A DNA stretch of 28,131 nt. Source: an uncultured Verrucomicrobiota bacterium (GTDB lineage Bacteria; Verrucomicrobiota; Kiritimatiellia; CAIKKV01; CAITUY01). The notes under the pieces were generated by a model that saw nothing but the letters and a program-made list of their open reading frames with translations, searched no databases and was not told the origin of the DNA. The stretch is taken from positions 1-28,131 of the forward strand of contig CAZSSA010000026.1 in assembly GCA_964609375.1 (NCBI GenBank), written 5' to 3'. This document shows, in pieces, positions 1 through 19,138 of the stretch (its first letter is position 1; each line of letters opens with the position of its first letter). The position numbers and the translations under genes were made by a program.

Positions 1-73
1 CGAGCGGTGCGATTTTCATAAAGTTCGGGCGCGCGCCGACGACAGACATGATTTTAAGTTTTGTGGCCCCCAT
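1..73 (-). CDS. UDP-N-acetylglucosamine 2-epimerase-like protein, N-terminal fragment; the gene continues beyond the window start
   Basis: The reverse complement of 1..73 translates to MGATKLKIMSVVGARPNFMKIAPL. This matches the conserved N-terminus of non-hydrolysing UDP-GlcNAc 2-epimerases (KIMTVFGTRPEAIKMAPL). The frame is open to the window edge. An alternative start is the ATG at 49. Confidence 0.45.
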   Translation of the reverse strand, partial: MGATKLKIMSVVGARPNFMKIAPL

Positions 74-123
74 AGGACGAGTTTTATACTCCACGGGAGG
101 GTGGTTGTCGAGTATTCGGGCGG

Positions 124-1143
124 TTAATGGTGGTCGAAGATGGAGTCGGCCAGACGGGTCCCCGCTTCGGTGCCGATGCCGCCGGTGAAGGCGCCTGTGG
201 CGGCGCCGATGGTGGCGCTCAGGACGCCCTTCAGTTTGTTGCCCCAACTGTTCTTGCGTTGTTCAAGCGCCTCGGTTTCCGTGGAGGCGAGTTTATCCGC
301 CTGGCGCTTGATGGCCTCGGCTTCGACTTGAGCGGCGGCGGTCTTCTTGGAGGCGAAATCCCGTTCGGCGGCATCCCGCTCCGAAGCGACCTGCTGCATG
401 CCGGCTTGGGCCTCATCGACGGCACGCTGGCGGCGGTCCTGATGGGATTGCGAAAAGGCGTCAAGCGCTGCCGGTGTCTCTGTGGGTTCGGCTGTGAATG
501 AGCCTGTCTCCGCTTCGGCATCGCGGAGTGAGTTGAGGCGGGAGGGTGTTGGTGGAACGGATTGGGCCGGTGTGGCGGCTACCATTTTTGAATGGCGGCC
601 AAGCCAGCCTGCCAGCGGGGGAGCGTTGGTGTTTTTAGCGGAGACGTCCAGCCATGTCTGGATTTCGCCCAACAAGGAGGCGCCGGCCTCCATATCGGTT
701 TTCAGCCATCCATCGGTGACCATGCGGTGAAATTCGCCGTAGGTGGTCGGGAGCGGACTGGTCAGGCCGGCCTCTCTTGCCAGATTTCTAAGATAAGCAA
801 TATCACGGGCCTGTTCTGCGGTGGTATAGGTGGCCACGAAGGACTGGAAGCGCCCGCGGGCCGATTCTCCGAACTGCTGTTCCAGAGCGGTGCGTAGCCG
901 CTTGACCAGGTCGCCTGTCCATTGGGAGGCGGCTTCGCCCACCTGGGGGCGGAGCGCGGGTGGAGCCTCGGCGGCGAGGCCGGCGGCCTGGGTAGGAATC
1001 TGCTGACTCAACACATAGCGGAAATAGGAGGAAACGAGGATCTGGTTATCCTGCACACTGGCGGCGAAGCACGTGTGAGATCCAGGGCCAGTGAGCAGAC
1101 CCATAGCCAGGGCGATGCTTGGCATAACCGTTGCGAATTTCAT
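124..1143 (-). CDS. secreted hypothetical protein with an N-terminal signal peptide, C-terminal coiled coil and glycine-zipper tail; last gene of the five-gene operon
   Basis: 339-aa ORF. The signal-like N-terminus is MKFATVMPSIALAMGLLTG. A charged Ala/Glu/Gln-rich helical segment is followed by GAATGAFTGGIGTEAG (GxxxG repeats). The ATG at 1143 overlaps the stop of the upstream gene (ATGA at 1140-1143). No family was recognised. Confidence 0.55.
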   Translation of the reverse strand: MKFATVMPSIALAMGLLTGPGSHTCFAASVQDNQILVSSYFRYVLSQQIPTQAAGLAAEAPPALRPQVGEAASQWTGDLVKRLRTALEQQFGESARGRFQSFVATYTTAEQARDIAYLRNLAREAGLTSPLPTTYGEFHRMVTDGWLKTDMEAGASLLGEIQTWLDVSAKNTNAPPLAGWLGRHSKMVAATPAQSVPPTPSRLNSLRDAEAETGSFTAEPTETPAALDAFSQSHQDRRQRAVDEAQAGMQQVASERDAAERDFASKKTAAAQVEAEAIKRQADKLASTETEALEQRKNSWGNKLKGVLSATIGAATGAFTGGIGTEAGTRLADSIFDHH

Positions 1144-1985
1144 TGGGGTTTCTCCACGATTGTAACCTTGAGGTTGATTTTCCCGGGGGTAATTTCCAGA
1201 ACTTGCATCTTGAGCCCATCGGGGGGATTCAGGACGAGTTTTTCTGAGAGTTCTTCGGCGGAAATCAGTGATTCCAGGTTAAACAGAGCCAGGCCGGCTG
1301 AGTATTGTTTCTGCGTGGAGGTCTGGATGGACTCGGACATCCCGCGCAGGCGGTCGCGAATGGCTTTGAGTTTCCAGAGCTGATCCACGCCGCCGATGGT
1401 CAATTCCACTGGAACCGCCTTGCCGGCGGCTGACGGGGCGGTCTTTTCCGTCCACGCCTTGAGCATGGAAGGAATTAGGACGGCGAGGCATTTTTGTCCA
1501 CAGGCCTTCAAGGCTTTGGAACTGCCGGCGACGTCGTCGAGGCCGACGATGGAGGCGTCCTCGGAGGAGGCGGCGATGGTGGCCGAGTTGTCGGTGCGGA
1601 CGGCACGGAGGGTGGTGACGGCCTGATAGGTTCGGAGATTGCTGTCGCCGATGCGGCGCGCGGAGGGTTTGGCGACGGCCTCGCCGATGATAATGACGTC
1701 AGCGCCGAATTGCTGACCGAGGGCGGAGGCGCCGCGGTTGTCCCCGGCGTTGCGGAGGGATTGCTGGGTTTTTTGAAGGTTGGACTTGATCATATCCTGA
1801 TCAACGACATTGACCTGTTGATCCAGGAGCAGGCGGGTGGCCAGCGCCTCCACTTCGGCGGTGGGGATGGTGCCGAGGCTTTTTTCGTCGATCAGGAGCA
1901 TGACCTTGGGTGTGTCGGCCATGGTGGTGCCAGCCAGAAGAGAGAGGCTGGCCAAGAAGCGATAAAAGGTTTGTCGTGATGTCAT
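1140..1985 (-). CDS. periplasmic protein with a CsgG/TolB-N/LPP20-like fold (inference)
   Basis: 281 aa with signal peptide MTSRQTFYRFLASLSLLAGTTMA. The segment VMLLIDEKSLGTIPTAEVEALATRLLLDQQVNVVDQDMIKSNLQ...GADVIIIGEAVAKP...RTYQAVTTLRAVRTDNSATIAASS matches the repeat pattern of the CsgG/LPP20/TolB-N/FlgT superfamily. ATGA overlaps occur at both ends (1982-1985 and 1140-1143). Confidence 0.55.
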   Translation of the reverse strand: MTSRQTFYRFLASLSLLAGTTMADTPKVMLLIDEKSLGTIPTAEVEALATRLLLDQQVNVVDQDMIKSNLQKTQQSLRNAGDNRGASALGQQFGADVIIIGEAVAKPSARRIGDSNLRTYQAVTTLRAVRTDNSATIAASSEDASIVGLDDVAGSSKALKACGQKCLAVLIPSMLKAWTEKTAPSAAGKAVPVELTIGGVDQLWKLKAIRDRLRGMSESIQTSTQKQYSAGLALFNLESLISAEELSEKLVLNPPDGLKMQVLEITPGKINLKVTIVEKPQ

Positions 1986-2272
1986 CGTTTTGCCTCCAGT
2001 CGTTTCACTCGTGAGTCGAGTTGATCAAGATCGCGTTCCAGGGTTGCTATTTTCTTTTCGAGATTTTGCAGCCGACGCTCGACGCTGTTCATGGCGGTGG
2101 GGGTTTGTAACGGGCGTCCAAGCCGGGTTTCCAGTTCCCCTGTGCGTTTTTCCAGTTTATCCAGGCGGGGGATGGTGGTGTCGGTGGTGACGGGCTCCAG
2201 TTCCTGGGCGACGACGGGCAGGGTCAGCAGAGCGGCCAGGATGAAGAGAAGCGGTGTTTTTTGTCGTTTCAT
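1982..2272 (-). CDS. small secreted coiled-coil protein
   Basis: 96 aa. Signal peptide MKRQKTPLLFILAALLTLPVVAQE, followed by heptad-like LDKLEKRTGELETRL...LQNLEKKIATLERDLDQLDSRVKRLEAKR. The start overlaps the stop of the giant upstream ORF (TAATG at 2270-2274). The stop overlaps the next gene's start (ATGA). Confidence 0.5.
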   Translation of the reverse strand: MKRQKTPLLFILAALLTLPVVAQELEPVTTDTTIPRLDKLEKRTGELETRLGRPLQTPTAMNSVERRLQNLEKKIATLERDLDQLDSRVKRLEAKR

Positions 2273-5200
2273 TATTGATCTCCTGCGGCGGCAGCCGCCG
2301 CTGCCGCCCGTTCCGAGCAGACTTTACAGACAATGCTACCGGTGGGTTTGTTGGCTTCGGAGCCCTGATACAGGATGGAACCGCAGCCTGTGCAGCGGAT
2401 GCGGATGCAGTTCGGGCATGGGGATGACTGTTGGTCGCGACGTGCATAACCGGTGGCACCGCAGAGGCTGCAGGTGGTGGTGTAACACATGGGGCAGCTT
2501 TCCGGTTCCTGGCCGCGCGGATAATTTTTGGAGTAACTACAGCGGGGGCAGGTCAGGGAAACGCAGTTCGGACATTCGACGCCCTGGCCGGCGATGCCCT
2601 TAAAGGTTTTTCCGCAGCCGGGACATGTGACCATGGGGCCCCCGCCGGCGCCATCCCCGCCATTTCCATCGTCCCCTTTTCCGCTGCCCTTGTTCTTCGA
2701 TGAGCCCCCTGATTTTGTCACCTTGGGCCCCCCGCTGCCTGTACCGCCGGACTTTGGATTTCCGCCGGAGCCGGGGGCCGTGACATTGGCGCTGCCATTG
2801 GCCTTGCCGCCATCGGGAGACGATGATTTATTGTTGTCGAAGATAATCCCGGTTGTCTTGTCGGCGGCGGCGGCTCCGACGGCTTTGCCTGCGGCTGTGG
2901 CCCCGGCGGTCAGTCCTTCGGCGACGGCGTCGCCAACCTTGGTGCCAAGGGATTCCTTTCGGTCACCGGCGGCGACCTGCTTGCTGGTTTGATTTTGTTT
3001 ATCCCCGGCTTCCTGGCCGGCCTGGTCGACTTTGCCCTTGGCGTCGCGGGCTTCCTGGTCGCCGGCGGTGGAGCCTTGGGACACCTGATTATTGGCTTCC
3101 ATGTTACCCATGGCGTCGCGGGTTTTATCTGCGGATTTCTGATTACGGGTGCCGGTCAGCTTGTTGAGGGCGGAACCGTTGGGGTTCTGATTATCACCGT
3201 CCTCGTGACGGGAATCGTCTCCTTTCCCTTCGGCGTCCTTCAGGCGTTTTTTTTCGTTCAGGTTGGAGACCAGATCATGGAGGGGGGCTGAGTTTCCCTT
3301 GGCGAGGGCATCGGCGGCGTGGCGGGCTCCGGCATCGGAGGCGCCACGGGCGCGGAGTTTGTTGTAGATATCCTCGGCATTTCCCTTGGCGATCTTGTCG
3401 GCGTCGGTGGCGTTCTGTTCGTTTTTCTGTTTATCCTTCCAGTTGTCGTAGGCTTCCTTTTTCTGGCCGACGAGTTCATCGACGACGCCCTTTTCGGTGA
3501 GGCCGGCGCCGATTTCCGCTGTGTCCTTGACGGCGTCCTTGACGAAGGTTCCGGCGCGAACCCCGCCGTGAACGATGCCTTTGCCGAGGTCAACGGTGCG
3601 GTCGATGGCGGAGTCGTCACCGGAGACGGTCTCGATTTTTGGTTTCTCGGGAAGCTTGTCGCCCTTTGGGTCGCGGATCCCCTTGGATTTTTGCTCGTTC
3701 AAACGGTCCTCATAGCCCTGGGTGTTACCGGAGGAGTAGTCCTTGGCGAGTTTCCCGGCTTCGGCGGGATCCACGCCCATGCGGCGGAGCTTATTCTCGA
3801 GCTGGGTCTGGTAGGCCTGCTGATTCATTTTGTTGGCCTGATCGGTATCCTTGCTGGCCCCGGCGTAGTCGGAGCCTTTGTTGCGGACATCACCGGTCAT
3901 GCCGTCAAATTGCTGGAGGGCTTTTTTCTTGGCCTCGTCGGCGGGATCGTCGGCCGTGAGGATTTCCTTGATGTCCTGGGCGGTGTTCATGATTTGCATT
4001 CCGGTCATGGCGGTACCGGCAGCGGCCTTGATCTTGGCGCCGCGAGTGGTTGGGGTGGTGCCGGCCTTGGGAGCGCCACCCGGGCCATCGGCATCGGGGG
4101 ACGGGCGGACACCCGGACCATCGGCGTCGGCAGTGGGGCCCTTGTTCAATTTGTCGCGTGTGGTTTTGTTTTGTTCGGCGGTGGCCGCGTTGCCTTCCTT
4201 GACCTTACTGACGCGATCCTCGATGGCCTCGGAGGTGGTTGGCTGGTCGCCGTAGTTGGCTTTTTTCTTGGCATCGGCCCATGCTTTATCGCCTGCATTT
4301 TCGGTTATTTTTGCCTGATCGGCGATCTGCTGGCGAGTTTTTTGGGTTTTAGCCCCCTGTTCGACGCCAGCCTCCTTGATTTTTCCCATTTCGGTGTCGG
4401 CGGTCTTTTGCCAATCCTGTATTTTTTTCTGGCGGACTTCCGGGGTGTCGCCGAGATCCGAGATACCTGCGGTGACGTCATCGCCATAGTTCTTCAGTTT
4501 CTTGGCTTGATCGTAGAATTCCGGATTCTGCTTGGCGACGCCGGTGGCCTCGCCGGCCTTGGTGACGGCTTTGGCCTGATCCTTGATGTTGCCTCGTTTT
4601 TGGCCGTCGAGGTATTTCTTCTCGTGGTCGAGGGTCATGCCCTCGGCATCGGTGATGCCCCCGGCCTTATCGCCGACGGACTTGCGGCCGCCAGCGGTTC
4701 CGACGGCGTCAGGGTCCTGGATCTTGGCCTTGTCGTGCTGGCCCTTGGGGTCGTTTTTCCACATGGTTTCATCGGTGGTTTCGTTGACCACCTTGTGCCC
4801 CTTGTCGACGACCTTATCGCCGCGGTTTTGCCATTCGCCCTTTTTCTTGTCGAAGGCGGCATCGGAGTCGGGGGTCAAGTCGCCGTCGGAACGGACGTCT
4901 TTCTGGGCGCTGCCTGTGCTTTTGACGCCGCTCTTTTTGTCCATGTTGTTGTATTCCGAGACTCGGGGATCCTGAGCGGTGTATTTTTCGCGGACCTGAG
5001 TATGCTTCTGGGTGTATTCCTGTTTAAGTTTCTGGTACTCGGGGCTGTTTTTGTTGATGGAGCCGTCGGGATTCTTCGGGGCTTCCTTGCGGGCACGCTG
5101 GTCGTATGTGTTGCGGAGGTCGTCGAGTTCGGCCTGTTGCTGGTTGCGGAGATTGCCGAGGGTGGAGTTTTCCCCGGGGGTGGTCGAGGGGGCTTCATTC

Positions 5201-5625
5201 CTGCCGCTACTTGAATTCAGGAGGATGGTGCCGCCGATGCCTACAGCGGGATTAAGCGGTTCGTTATTGCTTTCCGGGGGCAGGGAGGAGTTGTTGTCGA
5301 GGCTCCGATTGGAGTCTCGATGAATGGCGGAGCCGGCGTTTTCATCGAGGGGGCGGTCGGTGGCGGAGGGGAGACGGCTGGCTTTATCCAGTGGCCGGTA
5401 GGATTGTTGTTGGATCGGCGAGCCGCTGTTGGCGTCGTTGTCGAGATTCCGGCTGGAGTTTTCATCGAGGGGGCGTGCGGTGGTGGAGGGGAGCCGGCTG
5501 GCTTTATCCAGCGGCTTGTAGGATTGCTGTTTGATTTGTGCGCCTGAGGGCAAGGGTGCGGTCAGGAGTGCCAGGGCGGCGAGGAGGTGGATCGACGGGG
5601 TGTGATGGCGAACAAAGCGTTTCAT
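2272..5625 (-). CDS. giant secreted low-complexity (Lys/Asp/Glu/Gly/Ala/Thr-rich) protein with N-terminal tandem repeats and a C-terminal cluster of eight CxxC zinc-ribbon motifs
   Basis: The ORF is open from 5799, but the likely start is the ATG at 5625. That ATG is preceded by GGAG with a 6-nt spacing, and it gives the signal peptide MKRFVRHHTPSIHLLAALALLTAPLPSGAQ. The protein has two ~40-aa repeats (QQSYKPLDKASRLPST..RPLDEN), then about 900 aa of charged, hydrophobic-poor sequence. The C-terminus reads CPGC..CPNC..CPRC..CPMC..CSLC..CPNC..CTGC..CKVC followed by poly-Ala. It lies 26 bp downstream of the lipoprotein gene. Confidence 0.7.
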   Translation of the reverse strand: MKRFVRHHTPSIHLLAALALLTAPLPSGAQIKQQSYKPLDKASRLPSTTARPLDENSSRNLDNDANSGSPIQQQSYRPLDKASRLPSATDRPLDENAGSAIHRDSNRSLDNNSSLPPESNNEPLNPAVGIGGTILLNSSSGRNEAPSTTPGENSTLGNLRNQQQAELDDLRNTYDQRARKEAPKNPDGSINKNSPEYQKLKQEYTQKHTQVREKYTAQDPRVSEYNNMDKKSGVKSTGSAQKDVRSDGDLTPDSDAAFDKKKGEWQNRGDKVVDKGHKVVNETTDETMWKNDPKGQHDKAKIQDPDAVGTAGGRKSVGDKAGGITDAEGMTLDHEKKYLDGQKRGNIKDQAKAVTKAGEATGVAKQNPEFYDQAKKLKNYGDDVTAGISDLGDTPEVRQKKIQDWQKTADTEMGKIKEAGVEQGAKTQKTRQQIADQAKITENAGDKAWADAKKKANYGDQPTTSEAIEDRVSKVKEGNAATAEQNKTTRDKLNKGPTADADGPGVRPSPDADGPGGAPKAGTTPTTRGAKIKAAAGTAMTGMQIMNTAQDIKEILTADDPADEAKKKALQQFDGMTGDVRNKGSDYAGASKDTDQANKMNQQAYQTQLENKLRRMGVDPAEAGKLAKDYSSGNTQGYEDRLNEQKSKGIRDPKGDKLPEKPKIETVSGDDSAIDRTVDLGKGIVHGGVRAGTFVKDAVKDTAEIGAGLTEKGVVDELVGQKKEAYDNWKDKQKNEQNATDADKIAKGNAEDIYNKLRARGASDAGARHAADALAKGNSAPLHDLVSNLNEKKRLKDAEGKGDDSRHEDGDNQNPNGSALNKLTGTRNQKSADKTRDAMGNMEANNQVSQGSTAGDQEARDAKGKVDQAGQEAGDKQNQTSKQVAAGDRKESLGTKVGDAVAEGLTAGATAAGKAVGAAAADKTTGIIFDNNKSSSPDGGKANGSANVTAPGSGGNPKSGGTGSGGPKVTKSGGSSKNKGSGKGDDGNGGDGAGGGPMVTCPGCGKTFKGIAGQGVECPNCVSLTCPRCSYSKNYPRGQEPESCPMCYTTTCSLCGATGYARRDQQSSPCPNCIRIRCTGCGSILYQGSEANKPTGSIVCKVCSERAAAAAAAAGDQ
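5287..5530. repeat. two ~120-bp tandem direct repeats, imperfect (roughly 85% identical), inside the 5' part of the giant gene
   Basis: The unit ...ttttcatcgagggggcg(g/t)(t/g)cggtgg(c/t)ggaggggag(a/c)cggctggctttatccag(t/c)ggc... appears starting at ~5337 and again at ~5458. It encodes the duplicated peptide QQSY(K/R)PLDKASRLPS(T/A)T(A/D)RPLDEN. Confidence 0.6.
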
Positions 5626-5650
5626 AAGCGTCTCCGAATGGGATGTTGAA

Positions 5651-7834
5651 TTAACGGCGTATTTCCAGCGGTTCGCTGCGCTGACTTTCGAGACCGTCGA
5701 CATCGATGGATGATATTTGAACGTTGAGTTTCGCGCCCACATTGGTTGCGTGCAGGGCGAATTCCGTTCCATCGGTATTGCCGAGCGAGGCGGCTCCAAG
5801 TCCCAGAACCCCTTTTTTCCATACCCGATACTGTTTGATGTCAGGTTGAGGCGGGGCGTTCCATGACAGCAGCGCCTGATTGTCGTTCCATGTGACTTTC
5901 ATGCCAGTTGGCGGGTGGGGGGCGGGCTTGGTGGCGCCTTGGACGGGGGTTGTCCATTCGCTCTCCAGGCGATCACCATCCAGGGCCTTGAGGCGGTATT
6001 CATAGGTCTTGCCGTCCGCCAGCCCTTCCTGAGTGGTTTCGACGGTCATGTCGCCCGAGGAGTCCACGCGGGCGATTTCATGGAACCGCCAGGCGCCGGT
6101 TTCGCGTCCTTCGACAATGTATTTCCTGATATCGGGTTCGGTGTTGGAGTTCCACTGCAGACGGATTTTGCGTGCGATGCCCCGTCCAACGGAAAGTCCG
6201 GCGGGGGGGCGGGGGGCGGGTTTTGTGGTGACGGTGACTTCCTGGCCGGGGCTTGAGCGGGTGTCGCCGAGATTGATCGCGGTGATTTGATAGCGATACA
6301 GGGTCCCGTCCTTCAGGTTGCCCAGATCGGCGGCATTCCGTACGCCGCCCCGATCCAGCCATGTGGTGCGGTTGCGGTCATGGAGGGTTTCGATTTCCGA
6401 GAAGGAGCCGTTGGCGCCTTCGGCGCGGGAGATGACGTAGCGATCCACTTTTTCATCGGCGGAGGCATTCCAGGAAAGGGGGACTTCGCGGGGGCGGGCG
6501 TCTTCGGCTTTCAGGCCGGAGACCATGGGCGGGGGAGAGCGGGTGGTGGCGGCAACGGCGGGGATGTCATCGCTGACGGCGCCGACTTCGTTCACGGCGC
6601 GGATCCGGTAGTGGTAGGTTTTGCCATCCTTGAGCTTACCCGGCTCGCGGCCGCCATCGGTAAAGGAGGTGGTGGCGGGGCCGCGGACGGACTCCACTTC
6701 GGTAAAGGGGCCTTCGTCCGACTCGGCACGGAGGATAACGTAGCGGATGATGCCGGGATCGGTGCTAGCGGTCCAGTTCAGGGGGACAATGCGAATCCAT
6801 TCACTTTCTGCAGTAAGACCGGCGACCGGGGATGGTGGAGGGGCTGTCATGGTTTCATGGATGACTGTGTAATCGCTTTGCAGGCCGGATTCGGCGATGG
6901 CGGCCATGCGATAGTAATAGGTGCTGCTGTCCTTGAGGGGGAGTGTGGAGCCTTTATCTATGAATGTGCGGCGGGAAGGGGCGACTTCGGCGATGGAGAT
7001 GAAGGTGCCGTTGCGGTTATCGGCGCGCTCGATACGATAACGCGAGGCGGTGGCATCGGCCGGGGCGTTCCAAGAAATCGTGGTCTGACGTAAGCCCATA
7101 TCCGACACCTTGAACCCGGACGGGGGAGGAGGGGGGAGGAGGCGCGGGGCTGGAGACGAAACGGCGGCCGACGGTGCGGGCGCCGGAAGGGCAGGAGAGG
7201 AGAGGGGTGATGGGCTGGCGGATACGGGCGCCCGCAGCGGGGAGGCCTTGATGCATTTCCATTTCTGATACAAGCCGGCGGCCATACTGTGGACCACGAT
7301 GCGTGCCTGTTCCGGGAGGGTGACATCGCTGTTATCCGCCCGCTTGGCGAGATCCACGCTGCACAGGACGCGGCCGCTTTTGCAGTCGATCATGCGCACG
7401 GAGACGCCCACGACGGGGATGGCGTTGCCGCGGCGGGCGATGGTGTTGTATTCATCCACGGTTCCGACCAGCACGGCGTCGGCACCCAGCATATTGCCCA
7501 CTTCGGCGGCCTTGCTTTCCGACAAGCCGGCGAGGGCGAGTTCGGATTCGCCCAGAACGTTGGCCATCTGACTGCGTTCGACGAGGTGGAACCGGTTCAT
7601 GTGCAGGAGTTCGGTGACGAACATATCGGAAACGGAGGTGCCGATGAGTTCAGTGGGCGCCTTGAACGGCATGATGGCCACTTTTTCCACGGGTGAGCCG
7701 GTGGGCGCCACATAAACGTTTGTTTTTGGATCGACGTTTTTAAAGTAGGACTCAAGGTTGTCGGTGGCGCAACCTGCCAGGTAAACAGCCGAGGCGATGC
7801 CGGTGGACAGTAAGAAAGCCCTATAAAACCGCAT
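5651..7834 (-). CDS. outer-membrane lipoprotein with an N-terminal CsgG-like domain followed by a Pro-rich linker and five fibronectin type III (FN3) repeats; first gene of the operon
   Basis: 727 aa. Lipobox LAGC (MRFYRAFLLSTGIASAVYLAGCATDN). The segment VAIMPFKAPTELIGTSVSDMFVTELLHMNRFHLVERSQMANVLGESELALAGLSESKAAEVGNMLGADAVLVGTVDEY matches the CsgG family signature closely. Five ~95-aa repeats of the type xxSWNAxxDxxxxRYxIxRAE..G.F..I, ending in Y.YR..A, are FN3-like. A good RBS (AAGGAAGGAG) precedes the ATG at 7834. Confidence 0.75.
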   Translation of the reverse strand: MRFYRAFLLSTGIASAVYLAGCATDNLESYFKNVDPKTNVYVAPTGSPVEKVAIMPFKAPTELIGTSVSDMFVTELLHMNRFHLVERSQMANVLGESELALAGLSESKAAEVGNMLGADAVLVGTVDEYNTIARRGNAIPVVGVSVRMIDCKSGRVLCSVDLAKRADNSDVTLPEQARIVVHSMAAGLYQKWKCIKASPLRAPVSASPSPLSSPALPAPAPSAAVSSPAPRLLPPPPPSGFKVSDMGLRQTTISWNAPADATASRYRIERADNRNGTFISIAEVAPSRRTFIDKGSTLPLKDSSTYYYRMAAIAESGLQSDYTVIHETMTAPPPSPVAGLTAESEWIRIVPLNWTASTDPGIIRYVILRAESDEGPFTEVESVRGPATTSFTDGGREPGKLKDGKTYHYRIRAVNEVGAVSDDIPAVAATTRSPPPMVSGLKAEDARPREVPLSWNASADEKVDRYVISRAEGANGSFSEIETLHDRNRTTWLDRGGVRNAADLGNLKDGTLYRYQITAINLGDTRSSPGQEVTVTTKPAPRPPAGLSVGRGIARKIRLQWNSNTEPDIRKYIVEGRETGAWRFHEIARVDSSGDMTVETTQEGLADGKTYEYRLKALDGDRLESEWTTPVQGATKPAPHPPTGMKVTWNDNQALLSWNAPPQPDIKQYRVWKKGVLGLGAASLGNTDGTEFALHATNVGAKLNVQISSIDVDGLESQRSEPLEIRR

Positions 7835-8020
7835 GAGTCAAACTCCTTCCTTTTCCTGTGGGAGCCCCCTGCGGGTGATAGCAGAGGCCGCCAAAATTAT
7901 GGGTTAAGATAGCATGAGTCGGTGTGTGGCGGTAGCGGAAAAGGACGGATTCCGTAGGGGTATCTGCCGCCGGGAGGGAGGGGGGGTAGGGTTCAGGGTT
8001 CAGGGTTCAGGTTTTGTGGG

Positions 8021-8794
8021 CTACGGATAATCCTGGCGGGTGGGGCGGATAACGATGTCGCCGACATGGACGTGGGGCGGGCGGGTGACGATAAAGTGGA
8101 TGGCGTTAGCCACGTCCTGACCTTCCAGTAAGGGGCCGTATTTATCTTTGAAATTCTGGACCATGTCGTCGCTATAGCCTGCCGCCGCTTGAAATCCACT
8201 TAGGACAAAACCAGGTTCCACCAGTGAAACACGGATTCCCTTGGGCCCCATTTCGCGGCGCAGGGCCTCTGCCAGGGCGTGGACGGCGAACTTGGTGGCG
8301 CCATAGACGGCACTGAAGGGGGAGATATGCCGCCCCACGACGGAACCGATGATGACAATATCGGCCGCTGTTTTCGGATAGGCGTGTTGCTGATCCACCA
8401 TTTTCTGTGCGGCTTTTTGCAGCAAGGCGAGGGTGGCGGTGACGTTGGTTTGCAGTACCTCGTTGAGTTGGGAGAGATCGGAGTCCTTGACGGACCCGCC
8501 AAGGCCCCGGCCTGCGTTGGCCACGACGATGTCAGCCGGCTTGCCGAAATGCTCGATGGCCAAGGCAAAGAGTTGTTCCAGAACGGCGTTGTCCGCCGTG
8601 TTGCCGGCGACGCCGCGGAAAGCGGGCCCCAGTTCCTTTTCAAGGGCGGCAAGTTTGGCGGCATTGCGGCCATTGCCGATAACGCCAAAGCCAGAAGAGA
8701 TGAAGGTACGGGCGGTGGCTTCGCCGATGCCGGATGTGGCACCCGTGATGATGGCAATGCGGGAGTAAGGGGTAGTCATAGGGGGTTGATCCAT
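8021..8794 (-). CDS. short-chain dehydrogenase/reductase (SDR) family oxidoreductase
   Basis: Carries the TGATSGIG NAD(P)-binding motif, NAG, and the catalytic Y..K pair (YGATKFAV). It aligns along its length with classical SDRs. The alternative start at 8779 (MTTPYS) forms an ATGA overlap with the vapC stop at 8776-8779, so 8779 may be the true start. Confidence 0.9.
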   Translation of the reverse strand: MDQPPMTTPYSRIAIITGATSGIGEATARTFISSGFGVIGNGRNAAKLAALEKELGPAFRGVAGNTADNAVLEQLFALAIEHFGKPADIVVANAGRGLGGSVKDSDLSQLNEVLQTNVTATLALLQKAAQKMVDQQHAYPKTAADIVIIGSVVGRHISPFSAVYGATKFAVHALAEALRREMGPKGIRVSLVEPGFVLSGFQAAAGYSDDMVQNFKDKYGPLLEGQDVANAIHFIVTRPPHVHVGDIVIRPTRQDYP

Positions 8795-9201
8795 CGTACT
8801 GTGGGGAAACGCGAGAAATCAGAATCCGTGGAGGCGAGTTCGCAACCGTTCTCCACGGCGAGTGATGCAAGATGGGCGTCGGTGACAAGATTGGCGACAG
8901 CTTGCCCCTCGCGAAGCATCTTTTGAAACAGGGTCCAGTGTTTCTCTGTCGGATGAATGATTCTGGTACAGGGCTGGTCAATCCAACTTTGCACACGGGT
9001 GAGTGCTTGATCAAGGGACAGAGGGTGTTCAAAGACGCGTGGGTTGGTGCTGATGCGGATGAAGGCGCTGAGGACCGTCCAGCAGAGACACACGGGTGAA
9101 CTGCCGGATAATTTGGCATCCCACCAGGCGACGGCCTTGGAATGGAGCGGGCTGAGTTGATCTTCTGCGTATAGAAGGATATTGGCGTCCACAAGGATCA
9201 T
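8776..9201 (-). CDS. vapC: PIN-domain ribonuclease toxin VapC
   Basis: 141 aa. MILVDANILLYA...TDAHLASLAVENGCELASTDSDFSRF carries the conserved PIN acidic residues (D5, E, D, D). The start overlaps the upstream antitoxin stop (ATGA at 9198-9201). Confidence 0.85.
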   Translation of the reverse strand: MILVDANILLYAEDQLSPLHSKAVAWWDAKLSGSSPVCLCWTVLSAFIRISTNPRVFEHPLSLDQALTRVQSWIDQPCTRIIHPTEKHWTLFQKMLREGQAVANLVTDAHLASLAVENGCELASTDSDFSRFPTVRWINPL

Positions 9202-9691: not shown

Positions 9692-11263
9692 CTATTTTTT
9701 CGGCTCTTCTTTTTTCATGTCTGGCTGGAGCTTGCCCAGAAAATCGGGAAGATCCAGTCCCACCTGCTTGGCCAATTCGTGCATCGGGGGCAGGGCGCCC
9801 ATCAGCTTTTTGCCCAGGTTTGACATGCCGCCATTTTCCGACCCGCCGTCCCAGATCACGACCTTCTCGATGGGCAGGTCCTGAATGGCCTGCGCCTGGA
9901 TATGGGCAATCTCCGTCAGGCGTTCGATCAGCAGCAAGGAAGCGGCGACCTGAGGCTCGCCCGCCGACTTGATGAGGTTGCGATACCCTTCCGCCTTGCC
10001 ATCGAGGACCGCCTGCAAGCCTTTACCCTCGGCCACCATCTTGGCCAACGTGGCTTCGGCTTGTCCCTTCGCCCGCAGGACAGACTGCTCGCGCTCGGCG
10101 TCGGCGGCGATAACCACCTTTTTCTTCTCGGCTTCGGCTGGCACGACAATTTCGGCATTGAGGCGTGACTGTTCGCGCAAGGCGCGTGCGTCTTCGGCGA
10201 GCTTCTGCGCCGTTTCCTGAGCCACACGGATGGATCCATCCGCCTCGCGGGAAGCGGTTTCACCCTTGTTGCGGGCCTCTTCTTCCGCCACCTTCTGGGT
10301 TGCCCGGTAGCTGGCCTTCTGGGCGTTGGCGGCGGTTTCCGACTGCACGGCATCGGCTTCCAGTTTCGCGGTCTGTTGACGCTTGTTCTTGTCCGCCGAG
10401 GCTTCGCCGATCTGGGCTTCCGCCATGGCTTGCGACACTTGTTGGCGTTTTTTCCGCTGGGCATCCGCTTCGCCGATTTCGGCCTCGGCGGTAGCGGCGG
10501 CCACGGCAATACGCTGATCGCGCTGGCGTTCGGCCACGCCCATCTGCCCATGCTTTTCCTGTTCGGCCACGTCCACGTTGGCCTGATTGATCGCCTCGGC
10601 GGCCGCCTTGCGGCCGATGGCCTTGATGTAGCCGGATTCATCCTCGATGTCGCGGATGTTGACGTTGATGACCGCCAAACCGATTTTCTCCAGTTCGCCT
10701 GCCACCGATTCATTCACCTTGGACATGAACACCTGGCGGTCGCGATTGATGTCCTCGATGCGCATGGTGGCCAGCACGGCGCGCATCTGGCCGATGATGA
10801 TATCCTGGGCCAATGCCTGGATCTGCTGGGAGCTCAAGCCCAACAGGCGGATGGCGGCATTTTCCATTATTCCCGCCTGGGTCGAGATGGCGGCGGTCAC
10901 CGAGGTGGGCACCGTGACGCGGATATTTTCCTGAGAGAGTGCATTCGACAGGTCGATGGGAACGACAAACGGTTCCAGATCGAGGTAGTCGTATGATTGA
11001 ATCAGCGGCATCACGAAGGCGGCGCCGCCGTGAACGCACTTGGACGCCCCGCTGCTCGTCTTGCCGTAGATCACGAGGATCTTGTTGGACGGACACCGCT
11101 TGTAGCGGCGGACGAACGTCATGAACAACACAAAGACGATAACGGCGAGCAGGATGCCCAGAAAAATAGCAATGGGAGAGACACCGCTTGTGTTCCGCGC
11201 TGCATTGAATTGAGCCAAAAAGAGTCCATTCATGATCGTATTCATACCGCTGATTCCTTTCAC
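9692..11263 (-). CDS. flotillin-like SPFH/band-7 domain protein (YqiK/FloT-like)
   Basis: 523 aa. It has an N-terminal TM helix, an SPFH domain (VVPIDLSNALSQENIRVTVPTSVTAAIS...), a long Ala/Glu/Gln-rich coiled-coil flotillin repeat region, and the C-terminal flotillin tail. It is paired with an upstream NfeD-like gene, as in yqiJK. Confidence 0.9.
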   Translation of the reverse strand: MKGISGMNTIMNGLFLAQFNAARNTSGVSPIAIFLGILLAVIVFVLFMTFVRRYKRCPSNKILVIYGKTSSGASKCVHGGAAFVMPLIQSYDYLDLEPFVVPIDLSNALSQENIRVTVPTSVTAAISTQAGIMENAAIRLLGLSSQQIQALAQDIIIGQMRAVLATMRIEDINRDRQVFMSKVNESVAGELEKIGLAVINVNIRDIEDESGYIKAIGRKAAAEAINQANVDVAEQEKHGQMGVAERQRDQRIAVAAATAEAEIGEADAQRKKRQQVSQAMAEAQIGEASADKNKRQQTAKLEADAVQSETAANAQKASYRATQKVAEEEARNKGETASREADGSIRVAQETAQKLAEDARALREQSRLNAEIVVPAEAEKKKVVIAADAEREQSVLRAKGQAEATLAKMVAEGKGLQAVLDGKAEGYRNLIKSAGEPQVAASLLLIERLTEIAHIQAQAIQDLPIEKVVIWDGGSENGGMSNLGKKLMGALPPMHELAKQVGLDLPDFLGKLQPDMKKEEPKK

Positions 11264-11274
11264 ACTGCCGATGT

Positions 11275-11877
11275 CTATTCCACTTGCACTTCAACTGAAT
11301 TATCGCCAAAAACGCGGAGCACTTTAACGGGTGTTCCGGCGGCAATGGCTTCGCCGTCATTTGCCCGTGCTTTTACCATGGTGATGATCCCGCCGCATAA
11401 CACCCGAATTTCGCCGGTGCCGCCTTTGGGGATGTTCAGGTAGACCGTGGCCGAACTGCCCACGCAGGAGCCGATCCGAAGATTACCGGTCTCGGACATA
11501 CGGCGGAGCAGGTGCATCAGATAAGAGACAATCACCATGGCGACCAAGCCCCATCCCAAGGCGTAAATCAACGCGAGTGTCTGAGGGACGGATCGGCTCA
11601 TGTACAATCCACCAGCCCAGGTGAACAGGGTGAAGAAGGCGAGGATGGAGCGAACGGAGAGAAGCTTGAACGCCTCCACGGAGTCCTGGGCATCATGGGG
11701 AGCATCATGTGCGAGGGTGGATCCGATATGAGTATCGAGTTCGGTGTCTCCGCTGCTGAGCCCTGCCAATGACATGACCAGTTGAATCAGGAAAAAGACG
11801 GTGAAAAATCCTGCCGCCACGAAAAACCATTGATTCACTGGCTGTAACGTTATCCACCATGCCGTTAGTGATTCCAT
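11275..11877 (-). CDS. NfeD-like membrane protein (YqiJ-like) with a C-terminal OB-fold
   Basis: 200 aa. It has multiple N-terminal TM helices and a C-terminal soluble beta domain (GTGEIRVLCGGIITMVKARANDGEAIAAGTPVKVLRVFGDNSVEVQ) typical of NfeD short homologs. It ends 12 bp before the flotillin start. Confidence 0.75.
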   Translation of the reverse strand: MESLTAWWITLQPVNQWFFVAAGFFTVFFLIQLVMSLAGLSSGDTELDTHIGSTLAHDAPHDAQDSVEAFKLLSVRSILAFFTLFTWAGGLYMSRSVPQTLALIYALGWGLVAMVIVSYLMHLLRRMSETGNLRIGSCVGSSATVYLNIPKGGTGEIRVLCGGIITMVKARANDGEAIAAGTPVKVLRVFGDNSVEVQVE

Positions 11878-11956: not shown

Positions 11957-13156
11957 TTATTCGTTTCGCAAGGCTTCGGCGGGGGCGATGCGGGCGGCGG
12001 TTTTGGCGGGCAGATAACTGAACGCCAATCCGAGAAATAATCCGGCGACGGAGGGCATGAGGAGCACCATGGGACTGGTGGCGACGGGGATTGGAAGTTG
12101 TCCGCCGATGAGCGTAAGAATGATGACAGCGACGACGGTCCCGAGAAGGGTGGCGGAGAGGGTAAGCAGCAGCGATTCCATCAGGAACAGAAGACTGATA
12201 TCGAGCGTGGAAGCGCCCAGGGCGCGGCGGAGCCCGATTTCGGGGATGCGGGTCTGGATGTTGGCGAGCATGAGGCTCCCGAGCGTGATGCCTCCCATGA
12301 ACAGGCACAGCATGACAATGGCGCCGCCGGCAAGCATGATTAATCGGCGCAGGCTCAACAGGCGCGCTACCAGACTTTGGGGCGTTACCCATGAAACCGG
12401 TTCGGCGGTTTGCTCCGGATCGGCAAGCAGGTTGCGGGCGGACCGGAGTGTGGCGTCAAAGGTCCCGGCTTGTCCGCTGCGGATAAAGATGGCGTCGAGC
12501 CGTTCATCGGGAGGAATGGAATCGGATCGCCAGTAAGGCGGGACCGTCCACGGGATGATGATCAGGCGTTCTCCGGGGGCCAGGGCTTTCGATCCTGTTC
12601 CCGACGTGCTGCCTTCGGCGGTGATAATGCCAATGATACGGAAGACGACAGGGCCAAGGGTTATGGTATTGCCGAGGCCGAGGTGGAGTTCCCGGGCGAG
12701 TGTTTCTGAAAGTACCGCCACGGAGGAATGGTTGCGGATATCGGCGGCATCCAGCGGTCGACCGAGGCGGAGGGGCCAGGGGCGAACAGCAAAGCAGTTT
12801 TCATCGGCACCCAGGATGGTGGCGATGTGGCGGGAGGAATCCATTGGATAGGATTCCGAACGAATACCGGCGACGGTTGCGTCGGAAAGCGTTTGGCGCA
12901 GGAGGACGGCATGGCGCCGCGTGAGGGGTGCGGGGGATGGGGTCGTGGCTCCGGATGAGTCTTGAAGGATCGTGAAGACGTTTACCCCCAGCTCGGCGAT
13001 GGCGGTTTCCGTCTGGCGTTGCAACCCGACGACGAGGGATAGGAGCGTGGTGAGTGCCAGCATGCCCATGGCAATACCCGCGAATGGAAGGACGACCCGG
13101 ACAGGGTGGCGCCGGGCGCCTTCGCAGACATCCTGAAGCATGGGACGCCAGCGCAT
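11957..13156 (-). CDS. ABC transporter permease of the FtsX/MacB/DevC family
   Basis: 399 aa. It has an N-terminal TM, a large periplasmic domain, and three C-terminal TMs ending in the FtsX-like signature (...GLAFSYLPAKTAARIAPAEALRNE). Its start overlaps the ATPase stop. Confidence 0.85.
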   Translation of the reverse strand: MRWRPMLQDVCEGARRHPVRVVLPFAGIAMGMLALTTLLSLVVGLQRQTETAIAELGVNVFTILQDSSGATTPSPAPLTRRHAVLLRQTLSDATVAGIRSESYPMDSSRHIATILGADENCFAVRPWPLRLGRPLDAADIRNHSSVAVLSETLARELHLGLGNTITLGPVVFRIIGIITAEGSTSGTGSKALAPGERLIIIPWTVPPYWRSDSIPPDERLDAIFIRSGQAGTFDATLRSARNLLADPEQTAEPVSWVTPQSLVARLLSLRRLIMLAGGAIVMLCLFMGGITLGSLMLANIQTRIPEIGLRRALGASTLDISLLFLMESLLLTLSATLLGTVVAVIILTLIGGQLPIPVATSPMVLLMPSVAGLFLGLAFSYLPAKTAARIAPAEALRNE

Positions 13157-16504: not shown

Positions 16505-16564
16505 TTCCTCATGGCGGGTGTTGACCCGCACTCCAACTCTCAAATGACAGATTTCAGGTCCGAT

Positions 16565-17374: not shown

Positions 17375-17391
17375 GGTGTTCCTTCCGCAGG

Positions 17392-18930: not shown

Positions 18931-19138
18931 ACTACACAAGGTGGGTGTGTGGGGGAAAGAGCGAAAATCGGGCAACGGCGATTCAGGCACTGGGGAGGGG
19001 CCGACCTAGTTCTGTCCCTGCGGCCTGGCGATTCGAGTCGCCGGAGCCAGCGTGACGATTGGGTAGTGTTACTTGTTGATTCCGCTGACCCTAGCGCCCG
19101 CTCACCGCTCACATAACGGATAAAAGGATATTGCCATT

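What the first reader, a model, noticed from the sequence alone, without database searches (positions are those of the whole stretch)
2272..5625. Giant signal-peptide-bearing intrinsically disordered protein ending in four tandem zinc ribbons (8 CxxC) and a poly-Ala tail
About 900 residues are dominated by K, D, E, G, A, T, N and Q with almost no hydrophobic core. This predicts disorder. The N-terminus has two 40-aa tandem repeats encoded by a 120-bp DNA duplication. The last ~110 aa hold CPGC, CPNC, CPRC, CPMC, CSLC, CPNC, CTGC and CKVC. Zinc ribbons are unusual on a Sec-exported protein, so the localisation, or the metal/disulfide state, is worth settling. The high GC and low complexity also generate a 631-aa antisense ORF, which is an artifact.
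Basis: seen in the sequence. Interest (0 to 1): 0.6.

Follow-up and report, generated by a model that had tools for sequence, protein, structure and literature searches.

The report
Folded modular exported envelope protein
The 1117-residue gene is real and Sec-exported, but about 60% of it is predicted to fold into conserved domains of a large, uncharacterised family of bacterial envelope proteins, most of which end in a flexible tether and a cysteine-rich knob.

Summary
This covers the ORF 5625..2272 (-), the signal peptide, the 120-nt-period repeat, eight CxxC, the Ala tail and a 631-codon antisense ORF.

"Giant intrinsically disordered protein" is wrong for most of it. The protein is modular:
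- a signal peptide and a variable leader (aa 30-151);
- module N (152-520), modelled by AlphaFold at pLDDT 92 and pTM 0.89;
- a helical module M (525-790);
- module C (795-932), a long helix ending in a Gly/Ala zipper;
- a Gly/Ser tether;
- module Z (995-1106), four zinc-ribbon-like hairpin pairs at pLDDT 82-93.

A profile search found 373 representative clusters. They include Kiritimatiellota, Desulfobacterales, Sulfurovum and Sedimenticola. None has a Pfam, NCBIfam or PDB relative.

Across the family, the C module is followed by a tether of about 84 aa and a Cys-rich tail. So the exported cysteine knob is the rule, not an oddity.

The gene sits in a five-gene, all-exported operon. One partner is a CsgG-like lipoprotein that lacks the pore hairpins, so it resembles PelC or LpoB. 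Another is a 339-aa protein that shares the C module.

Function is unknown. My best guess is a tethered periplasmic or envelope enzyme-and-stalk complex.

The parts
2272..5625 (-). Complete gene, 1117 aa plus stop
   Evidence: The ORF is intact in the independent assemblies L007, L008 and L001.
5539..5625 (-). Sec signal peptide, aa 1-29 (predicted cleavage SGA|Q)
   Evidence: Read from the sequence. The maximum KD19 is 1.43 here against 0.97 or less in the mature chain. A hydrophobic N-terminus is conserved in homologues.
5173..5538 (-). Variable low-complexity leader, aa 30-151. It was not modelled and is presumed disordered. It contains the two repeat copies at 5332-5424 and 5452-5544.
   Evidence: Repeat. 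Identity to homologues is 30%, 14% and 10% or less. Thirteen of the 20 strain differences lie here. P0002 has only one repeat copy.
4066..5172 (-). N module, aa 152-520. It is a confidently folded alpha/beta core plus a helical domain. Invariant residues are G238, S239, D247, D249, W289, G329, K337, K352 and K356; D285 and D333 are nearly invariant.
3256..4053 (-). M module, aa 525-790. It is helical, with aa ~590-660 and ~720-800 modelled confidently.
   Evidence: It occurs on its own in 20 representative proteins.
2830..3243 (-). C module, aa 795-932. It is a long helix ending in the Gly/Ala zipper ...SLGTKVGDAVAEGLTAGATAAGKAVGAAAADKTTGIIFD.
   Evidence: pLDDT 61-77. It is homologous to the C-terminus of the 339-aa operon partner (hhalign probability 92%, E 6e-7).
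2644..2829 (-). Gly/Ser-rich flexible tether, aa 933-994
   Evidence: pLDDT is below 50 for aa 902-993. Gly is 29%. Across the family the median linker is 84 aa and 69% G/S/T/P/A/N.
2308..2643 (-). Z module, aa 995-1106. Four tandem units of the form CxxC-x13-18-CxxC (zinc-ribbon or rubredoxin-knuckle type).
   Evidence: positions. (eight short strands, pLDDT 82-93). Identity to P0002 and P0003 is 84% and 79%. Pfam gives only sub-threshold FYVE, IBR and Zn_ribbon hits.
2272..2307 (-). Ala-rich C-terminal helix (AAAAAAAAGDQ) and the stop codon. The stop overlaps the ATG of the next gene (TAATG).
   Evidence: model helix 581-593, i.e. aa 1101-1113.
5651..7834 (-). Upstream operon partner, a 727-aa lipoprotein (lipobox LAGC). 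It has a CsgG-family domain that lacks both transmembrane hairpins, followed by five FN3 domains.
   Evidence: Pfam CsgG 2e-16 and fn3 1.6e-27. Alignment with full-length CsgGs. PDB profile hits to CsgG 3e-7, PelC 1e-5 and GNA1162 2e-4.
1982..2272 (-). 96-aa signal-peptide plus coiled-coil protein. Its start and stop overlap the flanking genes.
   Evidence: Orthologues are present in L001, L007, L008 and L011.
1140..1985 (-). 281-aa exported protein whose N-terminal half is weakly CsgG/LpoB-like
   Evidence: BLASTP 0.006. (hhalign probability 63%, E 7e-5). It is conserved in L001, L003, L006, L007, L008 and L011.
124..1143 (-). 339-aa exported protein that ends in a copy of the C module
   Evidence: Its orthologue in the distant locus L006 scores E 1e-60.
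3319..5214 (+). 631-codon antisense ORF, a compositional artefact

Best explanation
The gene encodes a Sec-exported, modular and largely folded envelope protein. It is the founding example here of a large uncharacterised family.

Shown by computation:
- The domain order is: signal peptide, variable disordered leader, N module, M module, C module, a roughly 60-90-aa Gly/Ser tether, then a Z module with four Cys4 sites.
- The N module is an alpha/beta core plus a helical lobe with an invariant acidic and basic residue set.
- The M module is a helical stalk. The C module is a long helix with a Gly/Ala zipper.
- The gene is the second of five overlapping, all-exported genes.
- Its partners are a CsgG-family lipoprotein without pore hairpins carrying five FN3 domains, a small coiled-coil protein, a second CsgG/LpoB-like protein, and a 339-aa protein with its own C module.

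Inferred mechanism:
1. After Sec export the chain folds outside the cytoplasm.
2. The N module acts as a metal-dependent enzyme head of the Pol-beta nucleotidyltransferase type, carrying out phosphotransfer or hydrolysis on an envelope or extracellular substrate.
3. The M and C helices form a stalk that pairs with the C module of the 339-aa partner.
4. The cysteine knob loads Zn2+ in the periplasm, or is oxidised to disulfides. It sits on its flexible tether and docks the assembly to the lipoprotein scaffold, which would be a PelC/LpoB-like ring or spacer under the outer membrane.

The cysteine knob is therefore an extracytoplasmic anchoring or docking element, not a cytoplasmic nucleic-acid-binding zinc finger.
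For: Export:
- The signal peptide is conserved.
- There is no transmembrane segment in the mature chain.
- The partners all carry a signal peptide or lipobox.
- One relative fuses the N module to extracellular-type domains.
- Cys is almost absent from the N, M and C modules family-wide: 0.2%, 0.02% and 0.02%, against 0.94% elsewhere.

Folding and modularity:
- AF2 gives pLDDT 92 and pTM 0.89 for N.
- It gives confident helices in M and a confident Z.
- The modules occur independently in other proteins.
- 373 representative clusters score E<=1e-3 and 273 score E<=1e-10.

Enzyme-like head:
- G238, S239, D247, D249, W289, K337, K352 and K356 are invariant, and D285 nearly so, in 56 diverse sequences.
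- The strand order is beta1, GS, beta2 (DxD), helix, three strands with D285 at the last.

Shared C module: hhalign probability 92%.

Tether plus knob as a family rule: of 84 representatives with a C module and a tail, 67 have at least 4 Cys in the tail and 61 have at least 2 CxxC. The median linker is 84 aa.

Operon:
- Stops and starts overlap.
- No terminator-like site lies on the - strand in 1..9000.
- The same gene set occurs in L001, L003, L006, L008 and L011.

Scaffold rather than pore: both CsgG transmembrane hairpins are missing.
Against: - No activity, localisation or metal content has been measured.
- The G-S to DxD spacing is 7 residues with no helix, shorter than the canonical 9-13.
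- ATP and other NTPs are not expected in the periplasm, so a classical nucleotidyl transfer lacks an obvious donor.
- I could not inspect model coordinates to confirm that the invariant residues cluster.
- Docking of the knob to the lipoprotein, and pairing of the two C modules, are pure inference.
- The lipoprotein partnership is not universal. Planctomycete-like, Sulfurovum and Sedimenticola loci have TPR or other partners instead.
- The C module and part of M are modelled with only moderate or low confidence.
Confidence: 0.45

Rival explanations
1. The protein is essentially one long intrinsically disordered exported polypeptide, acting as an entropic brush, hydrogel or matrix protein. Only the C-terminal zinc ribbons are structured.
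For: Hydrophobic residues are 16% of the chain, and K, D, E, G, A, T, N and Q dominate. Every module except Z falls on the disordered side of the charge-hydropathy plot. About 330 residues do look disordered, counting low-pLDDT and unconserved stretches.
Against: The N module is modelled at pLDDT 92 and pTM 0.89. It has invariant Trp, Gly, Asp and Lys positions across 56 sequences that are only 21-88% identical to it. Parts of M reach pLDDT 91-97. N is 45-87% identical among homologues whose leader is 1-30% identical. Disordered regions do not keep such position-specific conservation.
Confidence: 0.08
2. A curli-like (type VIII) secretion substrate. The unfolded, Cys-free, hydrophilic chain is threaded N-terminus first through a CsgG-family outer-membrane channel. 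The C-terminal knob folds quickly in the periplasm and cannot pass, so it acts as a stopper. The protein ends up displayed on the cell surface, with the ~80-aa tether lying in the pore.
For: CsgG-family genes flank family members in Kiritimatiellia, in L006 and in Desulfobacterales. The Desulfobacterales CsgGs are full length, with segments that look like both hairpins. Cys is depleted in N, M and C while a Cys knob sits at the extreme C-terminus behind a tether of nearly constant length. One relative fuses the N module to cell-surface-type domains.
Against: In this window and its close relatives the CsgG-like domains lack both transmembrane hairpins. They score almost as well against PelC and GNA1162, which are soluble lipoprotein folds. 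No other outer-membrane channel is in the operon. Several lineages have no CsgG gene within 10 kb.
Confidence: 0.17
3. A partner of a MacB/FtsX-type ABC transporter. Like EnvC, PcsB or CwlO with FtsEX, the long helical M and C stalk would dock on the periplasmic domain of a MacB-type pump. The pump would then be activated, or drive export, by mechanotransmission powered by cytoplasmic ATP.
For: ABC plus FtsX genes lie within 10 kb of family members in four lineages: the window (11957-13848, with HlyD and OEP at 13845-16543), Desulfobacterales L005 (directly downstream), Sulfurovum L014 and Sedimenticola L015. The model has long helices.
Against: MacB-type transporters are common, so chance co-occurrence is plausible. 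None lies within 10 kb in L001, L003, L006, L012 or L013. In the window the pump is separated from the operon by the SDR, SPFH and NfeD genes.
Confidence: 0.1
4. A polymorphic toxin or effector. The nucleotidyltransferase-like N module would be a toxin delivered to competitors, and the hypervariable downstream genes would provide immunity or specificity.
Against: The putative toxin module is the most conserved part and sits at the N-terminus. In polymorphic toxins the variable toxin tip is C-terminal. The candidate immunity proteins are themselves exported. No known toxin-delivery machinery (T5SS, T6SS, T7SS or Rhs) is nearby. The variable cassette is under purifying selection, with dN/dS about 0.13-0.25.
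Confidence: 0.07
5. A type I membrane protein. The Gly/Ala-rich end of the C module would be a stop-transfer anchor, so the tether and zinc ribbons stay in the cytoplasm, where zinc ribbons are usual.
For: P0002 and P0003 have 19-22 uncharged residues in this segment.
Against: The highest 19-residue Kyte-Doolittle mean in the mature chain is 0.97, and it lies in the Ala tail, not here. The segment contains K, D or E in this protein and in most homologues. AF2 models it as the continuation of a long soluble helix. The same module ends the 339-aa partner, with nothing after it.
Confidence: 0.05
6. An assembly or sequencing artefact that fuses several smaller genes, or a wrong start codon so that no signal peptide exists.
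For: The gene is low-complexity and GC-rich with an internal 120-nt repeat. The window is a metagenome-type contig.
Against: An independent MAG gives the same 1116-aa ORF at 98% identity, with both repeats. Orthologues at 76%, 61% and 37-42% identity are collinear single ORFs of 981-1175 aa. GC3 is 0.72, the same as neighbouring genes. A ribosome-binding site and ATG lie directly after the upstream stop.
Confidence: 0.01

Closest known systems
Pol-beta-type nucleotidyltransferase fold, minimal ANT(2'')/LnuA-like enzymes (PDB 4XJE, 4WH5) and RelA/SpoT-type synthetases (5DEC, 7QPR, 6OX6)
Zinc-ribbon / rubredoxin-knuckle domains (for example DZR PF12773, Zn_ribbon families, IBR, FYVE)
   Same: There are four units of two CxxC knuckles, 13-18 residues apart. 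Each is modelled as a beta-hairpin pair. Weak hits to FYVE, IBR and several Zn_ribbon models are found.
   Different: Every Pfam hit is below its gathering score, and DZR does not appear at all. The four units are tandem, at the C-terminus of a Sec-exported protein, and follow a long Gly/Ser tether. The metal or disulfide state is unknown.
CsgG (curli channel), PelC, LpoB and GNA1162 lipoprotein fold (operon partner, not the giant protein itself)
   Same: The 727-aa neighbour passes the Pfam CsgG threshold (60 bits against a cut-off of 20.8). Its profile hits CsgG, PelC and GNA1162 structures.
   Different: It lacks both transmembrane hairpins that make the CsgG pore and carries five FN3 domains. 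No curli subunit or CsgE/F homologues are present.
FtsEX-EnvC, PcsB and CwlO type extracytoplasmic coiled-coil effectors (analogy from general knowledge)
   Same: Both are exported proteins with long helical stalks and an enzymatic domain. A MacB/FtsX-type ABC system is nearby in four lineages.
   Different: There is no sequence or fold similarity, the enzymatic domain is different, and the association is not universal.
Curli subunit CsgA and other hydrophilic secretion substrates
   Same: Both are Sec-exported, hydrophilic, Cys-free over most of the length, and encoded next to CsgG-family genes.
   Different: The protein has no amyloid repeats, is ten times larger, and is predicted to be alpha-helical or alpha/beta with a folded head. 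The local CsgG-like protein has no pore hairpins.

Membership tests
Intrinsically disordered protein (whole mature chain) | Low predicted structural confidence over most of the length | tested here: not met
   663 of the 1088 mature residues have pLDDT >= 70. Only about 330 are low-confidence or unmodelled.
Intrinsically disordered protein (whole mature chain) | Composition conserved but not position-specific sequence | tested here: not met
   The N module has invariant columns across 56 sequences. N, M and Z are 84-87% identical to P0002, against 30% for the leader.
Sec-exported protein | N-terminal tripartite signal peptide with a small-x-small cleavage site and no twin-arginine motif | tested here: met
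   MKRFVRHH / IHLLAALALLTAPL / PSGA|Q. An equivalent N-terminus is present in all 9 homologues and in most representatives.
Sec-exported protein | Experimental export or cleavage | not testable with these tools
   SignalP and DeepTMHMM were not available, and there are no wet-lab data.
Zinc ribbon | Two CxxC knuckles, each on a beta-hairpin turn, forming one Cys4 site | tested here: met
   Four pairs with spacings of 13, 14, 14 and 18 residues. Eight short strands at pLDDT 82-93.
Zinc ribbon | Significant match to a curated zinc-ribbon model (DZR PF12773, Zn_ribbon_*) | tested here: not met
   The best hits are FYVE at 18.8 bits (cut-off 27.8) and IBR_1 at 16.8 bits (cut-off 27). DZR is absent.
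Zinc ribbon | Bound Zn2+ rather than disulfides or another metal | not testable with these tools
   This needs metal analysis and thiol-state assays on exported protein.
Pol-beta nucleotidyltransferase fold | hG[GS] motif after beta1 | tested here: met
   The consensus is N-T-G-S. G238 is invariant. Position 239 is S in most sequences, G in P0125 and T in P0103.
Pol-beta nucleotidyltransferase fold | [DE]h[DE]h on beta2, 9-13 residues after G[GS] | tested here: inconclusive
   D247-x-D249-L lies on strand 97-101 of the model and is invariant. However, the spacing is only 7 residues and no alpha2 helix is modelled.
Pol-beta nucleotidyltransferase fold | Third carboxylate on a later strand of the same sheet | tested here: inconclusive
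   D285 is nearly invariant and sits at the start of strand 135-138.
Pol-beta nucleotidyltransferase fold | Significant structural or profile similarity to known members | tested here: inconclusive
CsgG secretion channel (727-aa neighbour) | Match to Pfam PF03783 above threshold | tested here: met
   60.4 bits against a cut-off of 20.8.
CsgG secretion channel (727-aa neighbour) | Two transmembrane beta-hairpins that build the 36-strand pore | tested here: not met
   Both segments are deleted relative to the Desulfobacterales CsgGs and E. coli CsgG.

The most novel reading that the evidence does not exclude
This operon is one instance of an undescribed, widely distributed machine of the diderm cell envelope.
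- A nucleotidyltransferase-fold enzyme would work outside the cytoplasm, on a polysaccharide, a protein or an extracellular nucleotide.
- It would be held on a helical stalk and fixed to a lipoprotein ring by an ~80-aa tether that ends in a periplasmically metallated Cys4 knob.
- It might be energised or gated by a MacB-type ABC transporter.
- The partner genes (281 aa and 339 aa) would be exchangeable specificity cassettes.
Probability: 0.15. Interest if true: 0.85.

Novelty: categorically new. Interest (0 to 1): 0.62.

Why it matters
- It corrects a tempting misreading. A protein whose composition says 'disordered' contains a very confidently predicted, deeply conserved domain with no detectable relative in Pfam, NCBIfam or the PDB.
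- It exposes a family of at least 373 clusters (at 50% identity) spread over several phyla of diderm bacteria. The family has a rule-like architecture: a Cys-free set of modules, a tether of about 84 aa, then a Cys-rich knob. Nothing is known about it.
- If the N module is an enzyme, it would be an extracytoplasmic nucleotidyltransferase-fold activity with no obvious nucleotide donor. That would raise a clear biochemical question.
- If the knob binds zinc in the periplasm, it would be a general solution for anchoring or docking exported proteins.
- One member is in a cultured isolate, Sulfurovum sp. CS9 (WP_415407895.1). The questions can therefore be tested at the bench.

Tried and rejected
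Searches that found nothing useful:
- Pfam and NCBIfam on the whole protein and on each module gave nothing above threshold.
- Pfam on 35 long relatives gave only extracellular beta-sandwich and TPR domains in single members.
- PDB sequence-profile searches with A1 and A4 gave only low-complexity helical or zinc-finger noise.
- Foldseek against the PDB for both models had no hit with E <= 0.001.
- Word-indexed homologue searches returned only 9 and 15 proteins, with no useful names.
- Four literature searches found no description of such a system or of exported zinc ribbons.

Tools that failed or were unavailable:
- The afdb50 library was not available.
- TRF did not report the 120-nt repeat; the repeat finder did.

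Hypotheses rejected:
- The C-module Gly/Ala segment as a membrane anchor. Hydropathy is too low and the segment contains charges.
- A genuine CsgG pore in this operon. The transmembrane hairpins are missing.
- The antisense ORF as a gene.
- Positive selection as the cause of divergence in the 339-aa gene between strains. dS is also about 1.0, so recombination is the better reading.

Full report
**1. The observation**

- The minus-strand ORF runs 2272..5799. The upstream gene stops at 5651, and the first ATG after it is at 5625, preceded by GGAG. This gives a protein of 1117 aa.
- The N-terminus is MKRFVRHHTPSIHLLAALALLTAPLPSGA|Q. It has basic, hydrophobic and small-x-small regions and no twin arginine.
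- A, G, K, D, T, S, N, Q and E make up 72% of residues. V, I, L, M, F, W and Y make up 16%.
- A 93-nt core occurs twice (5332-5424 and 5452-5544), at 84% identity and a spacing of 120 nt. TRF missed it.
- All 16 cysteines lie between aa 1001 and 1103, as eight CxxC. The protein ends ERAAAAAAAAGDQ.
- The 631-codon ORF at 3319..5214 (+) exists.

**2. One gene, not an artefact**

- An independent Kiritimatiellia MAG (L007, JBIJCW010000031.1) encodes a 1116-aa protein that is 98% identical. It has both repeat copies and all eight CxxC. Thirteen of the 20 differences lie in the first 150 residues.
- Orthologues at 76%, 61% and 33-42% identity are collinear single proteins of 981-1175 aa; a ninth, P0009, is a shorter 690-aa homologue.
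- GC3 is 0.72, the same as in neighbouring genes.
- The antisense ORF is the exact reverse register of the sense codons. The sense gene uses no TTA or CTA codons and only seven TCA codons.
- The 98%-identical strain already has a stop in the antisense frame.
- Antisense ORFs of 639 to 1027 codons occur in the GC-rich homologues (L007, L001, L003) and shorter ones (239-439 codons) in L005 and L006.

**3. Not a giant disordered protein**

Composition does place the leader, N, M, C and linker segments on the disordered side of the charge-hydropathy plot. Three other lines of evidence contradict that reading.

- *A large family exists.* A profile of the nine close homologues, scored against 1.84 billion representatives, found 373 proteins at E<=1e-3, 273 at E<=1e-10 and 87 at E<=1e-30.
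- *The protein is modular.* Cutting the profile into pieces shows four modules: N (aa 152-520), M (525-790), C (795-932) and Z (995-1106). Each occurs alone or in other combinations in other proteins. Counts are N alone 37, C alone 37, M alone 20 and MC 11.
- *The models are confident.*
  - AlphaFold2 on the N module with a 56-sequence alignment gave mean pLDDT 92.1 and pTM 0.89. It shows an alpha/beta core and long helices.
  - For aa 521-1117 the mean pLDDT is 68. Helices at about aa 590-660 and 720-800 reach 91-97. The C-module helix is at 61-77. Residues 902-993 are below 50. The Z tail is at 82-93, with eight short strands and a terminal Ala helix.
  - In total about 663 of the 1088 mature residues are at pLDDT >= 70.
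  - About 330 look disordered: the unmodelled, unconserved leader (aa 30-151), aa 503-549, some loops, and the Gly/Ser tether.

**4. The N module**

- Across 56 sequences that are only 21-88% identical to it, nine residues are invariant: G238, S239, D247, D249, W289, G329, K337, K352 and K356. D285, D333 and G387 are nearly invariant (confirmed on a second set).
- The family consensus reads NTGSxPKDVRADVDL ... TTDTTLW ... DxDAxxTxGG ... DPxGxxLDNEKKF ... LKTxxKSVxKA ... LRNYGDxxEAGI.
- In the model, G-S follows the first strand. D-x-D lies on the second strand, a helix follows, and then come three strands with D285 at the start of the last.
- This is the pattern of the Pol-beta nucleotidyltransferase fold: hG[GS], then [DE]h[DE]h, then a third carboxylate.
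- Foldseek found nothing. No Pfam nucleotidyltransferase model matches, even at E<=10.
- The G-S to DxD spacing is 7 residues, shorter than the canonical 9-13.

I therefore treat 'nucleotidyltransferase-like metal-dependent enzyme head' as a reasonable hypothesis. It is not a family assignment.

**5. The C module, the tether and the cysteine knob**

- The C module ends in a Gly/Ala zipper: SLGTKVGDAVAEGLTAGATAAGKAVGAAAADKTTGIIFD.
- The last 130 residues of the 339-aa protein encoded at 1143..124 are homologous to it (hhalign probability 92%, E 6e-7). That protein stops exactly at ...IFDHH.
- Across the family, 84 representatives have a C module followed by at least 40 residues. In 67 of them the tail has at least four Cys, and in 61 at least two CxxC.
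- The stretch before the first Cys has a median length of 84 residues and is 69% G/S/T/P/A/N.
- The Cys tails differ in sequence between lineages. The Z type seen here also occurs in P0002-4, P0015, P0026 and P0106. Other lineages end in motifs such as YKCxxCG or HCPHCKG.
- The N, M and C modules are almost free of cysteine: 0.2%, 0.02% and 0.02%, against 0.94% in the other regions of the same proteins.
- 'Cys-free modules, then a tether, then a Cys-rich knob' is therefore a rule of the family. Since nearly all members carry signal peptides, the knob functions outside the cytoplasm.
- Here the knob consists of four units of CxxC-x13-18-CxxC. It has no significant match to any curated zinc-finger model, and DZR does not appear at all.
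- Whether the knob holds Zn2+, another metal or disulfides cannot be decided by computation.
- A membrane-anchor reading, with the zinc ribbons left in the cytoplasm, is unlikely. No mature segment exceeds a 19-residue Kyte-Doolittle mean of 0.97, and the Gly/Ala segment carries charges in most homologues.

**6. Genomic context**

The gene is the second of five minus-strand genes.

| Window coordinates | Product |
|---|---|
| 7834..5651 | 727-aa lipoprotein (lipobox LAGC); CsgG-family domain plus five FN3 |
| 5625..2272 | the giant protein |
| 1985..1140 | 281 aa; signal peptide plus a weakly CsgG/LpoB-like half |
| 1143..124 | 339 aa; signal peptide plus C module |

- The last four genes overlap stop to start; the giant's ATG lies 26 nt after the lipoprotein's stop.
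- No terminator-like site lies on the minus strand in 1..9000.
- The same set recurs in L001, L003 (reordered), L006, L008 and L011. The L006 copy of the 339-aa protein scores E 1e-60.
- The CsgG-like domain is not a curli-type pore. Compared with full-length CsgGs from a Desulfobacterales locus and with E. coli CsgG, both transmembrane hairpins are deleted. Its profile also hits PelC and GNA1162.
- In other phyla the partners differ. The Desulfobacterales locus has two full-length CsgGs, a second giant protein, and OEP, HlyD, ABC and MacB genes directly downstream. Planctomycete-like contigs have an overlapping upstream TPR gene. Sulfurovum and Sedimenticola have unknown or TPR genes upstream, with CarboxypepD_reg, VWA and ABC/FtsX genes nearby.

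**7. Mechanism**

*Shown by computation:* the protein is exported, modular, largely folded, and part of a conserved exported operon.

*Inferred:*
- The N module is a metal-dependent catalytic head.
- The M and C modules form a helical stalk. The stalk pairs with the C module of the 339-aa partner.
- The knob on its tether docks the assembly to the PelC/LpoB-like lipoprotein scaffold beneath the outer membrane.

*Rivals:*
- Surface display through a CsgG-type pore, with the knob as a periplasmic stopper. This is attractive for lineages with full-length CsgG, but the hairpins are missing here.
- A MacB/FtsX mechanotransmission partner.
- A polymorphic toxin.
- A membrane-anchored protein with cytoplasmic ribbons.

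**8. Novelty**

- No Pfam, NCBIfam or PDB relative was found.
- Source annotations give no functional name: the named members are 'hypothetical protein', apart from one JGI label 'Cys-rich repeat protein'.
- Four full-text literature searches found nothing.
- Individual pieces resemble known things: a nucleotidyltransferase-like core, zinc-ribbon knuckles and CsgG-family lipoproteins. The protein family and the operon match no described system.
- The family includes at least one cultured isolate, Sulfurovum sp. CS9 (WP_415407895.1).

**9. Limits**

- I could not read the model coordinates.
- SignalP, IUPred and the AFDB fold library were not available.
- Nothing here measures localisation, metal content or activity.

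Noticed in passing
window ~300-1950 (C-terminal part of the 281-aa gene 1985..1140 and most of the 339-aa gene 1143..124) compared with L007 3921-5765: Between this window and a strain whose giant gene is 99-100% identical in DNA, identity drops abruptly to 63-85% across the two downstream genes. It recovers to 87% in the last ~190 nt. dS is 0.02 in the giant gene, 0.60 in the 281-aa gene and 1.0 in the 339-aa gene, with dN/dS about 0.13-0.25. This looks like an exchanged or recombined partner cassette inside the operon.
   Followed up: partly
Its ATG overlaps the giant gene's stop (TAATG) and its stop overlaps the next start (ATGA). It is conserved in L001, L007, L008 and L011.
   Followed up: yes
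window 11957-16543 (-); L005 11641-16438; L014 1-1062; L015 21570-22985: A MacB-type tripartite pump lies about 4 kb upstream of the operon: OEP 15059-16543, HlyD 13845-15062, ABC 13156-13848 and MacB/FtsX 11957-13156. ABC plus FtsX genes also lie next to distant family members in Desulfobacterales, Sulfurovum and Sedimenticola. I did not test whether this exceeds chance.
   Followed up: partly
L008 13297-16320 (+): The sister species, whose orthologue is 76% identical, carries a second paralogous giant protein (P0010, 1007 aa). It has N, M and C modules and a different four-CxxC tail, and lies directly after the first. The window lacks it. The Desulfobacterales locus L005 also has two giants.
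   Followed up: partly
L012 10001-14374: In a 7.19-Mb planctomycete-like contig, the family gene is split by an IS1595-family transposase into a 175-aa fragment and a 937-aa fragment.
   Followed up: no
window 1-9000, + strand: All 28 terminator-like sites fall on the + strand, against 16 +/- 4.6 expected from shuffles. That strand is antisense to the A-rich coding strand and is therefore T-rich. AT skew reaches -0.50 at 4001-5000. This is a compositional by-product, not regulation.
   Followed up: partly
window 9692-11877 (-) and 16565-18990 (-): Between the pump and the operon lie an SPFH/Band-7 gene (9692-11263) and an NfeD-like gene (11275-11877). Beyond the pump lie a GT2 glycosyltransferase (16565-17458) and an FHA plus TPR protein (17392-18990). 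These are envelope or polysaccharide-type neighbours. Related loci likewise carry Wzz, Poly_export, GT and Wzy genes.
   Followed up: no
family-wide (155 representatives): The N, M and C modules together contain 52 cysteines in 53,520 residues. The regions outside the four modules in the same proteins have 0.94% Cys. This is strong avoidance of cysteine everywhere except the C-terminal knob.
   Followed up: yes
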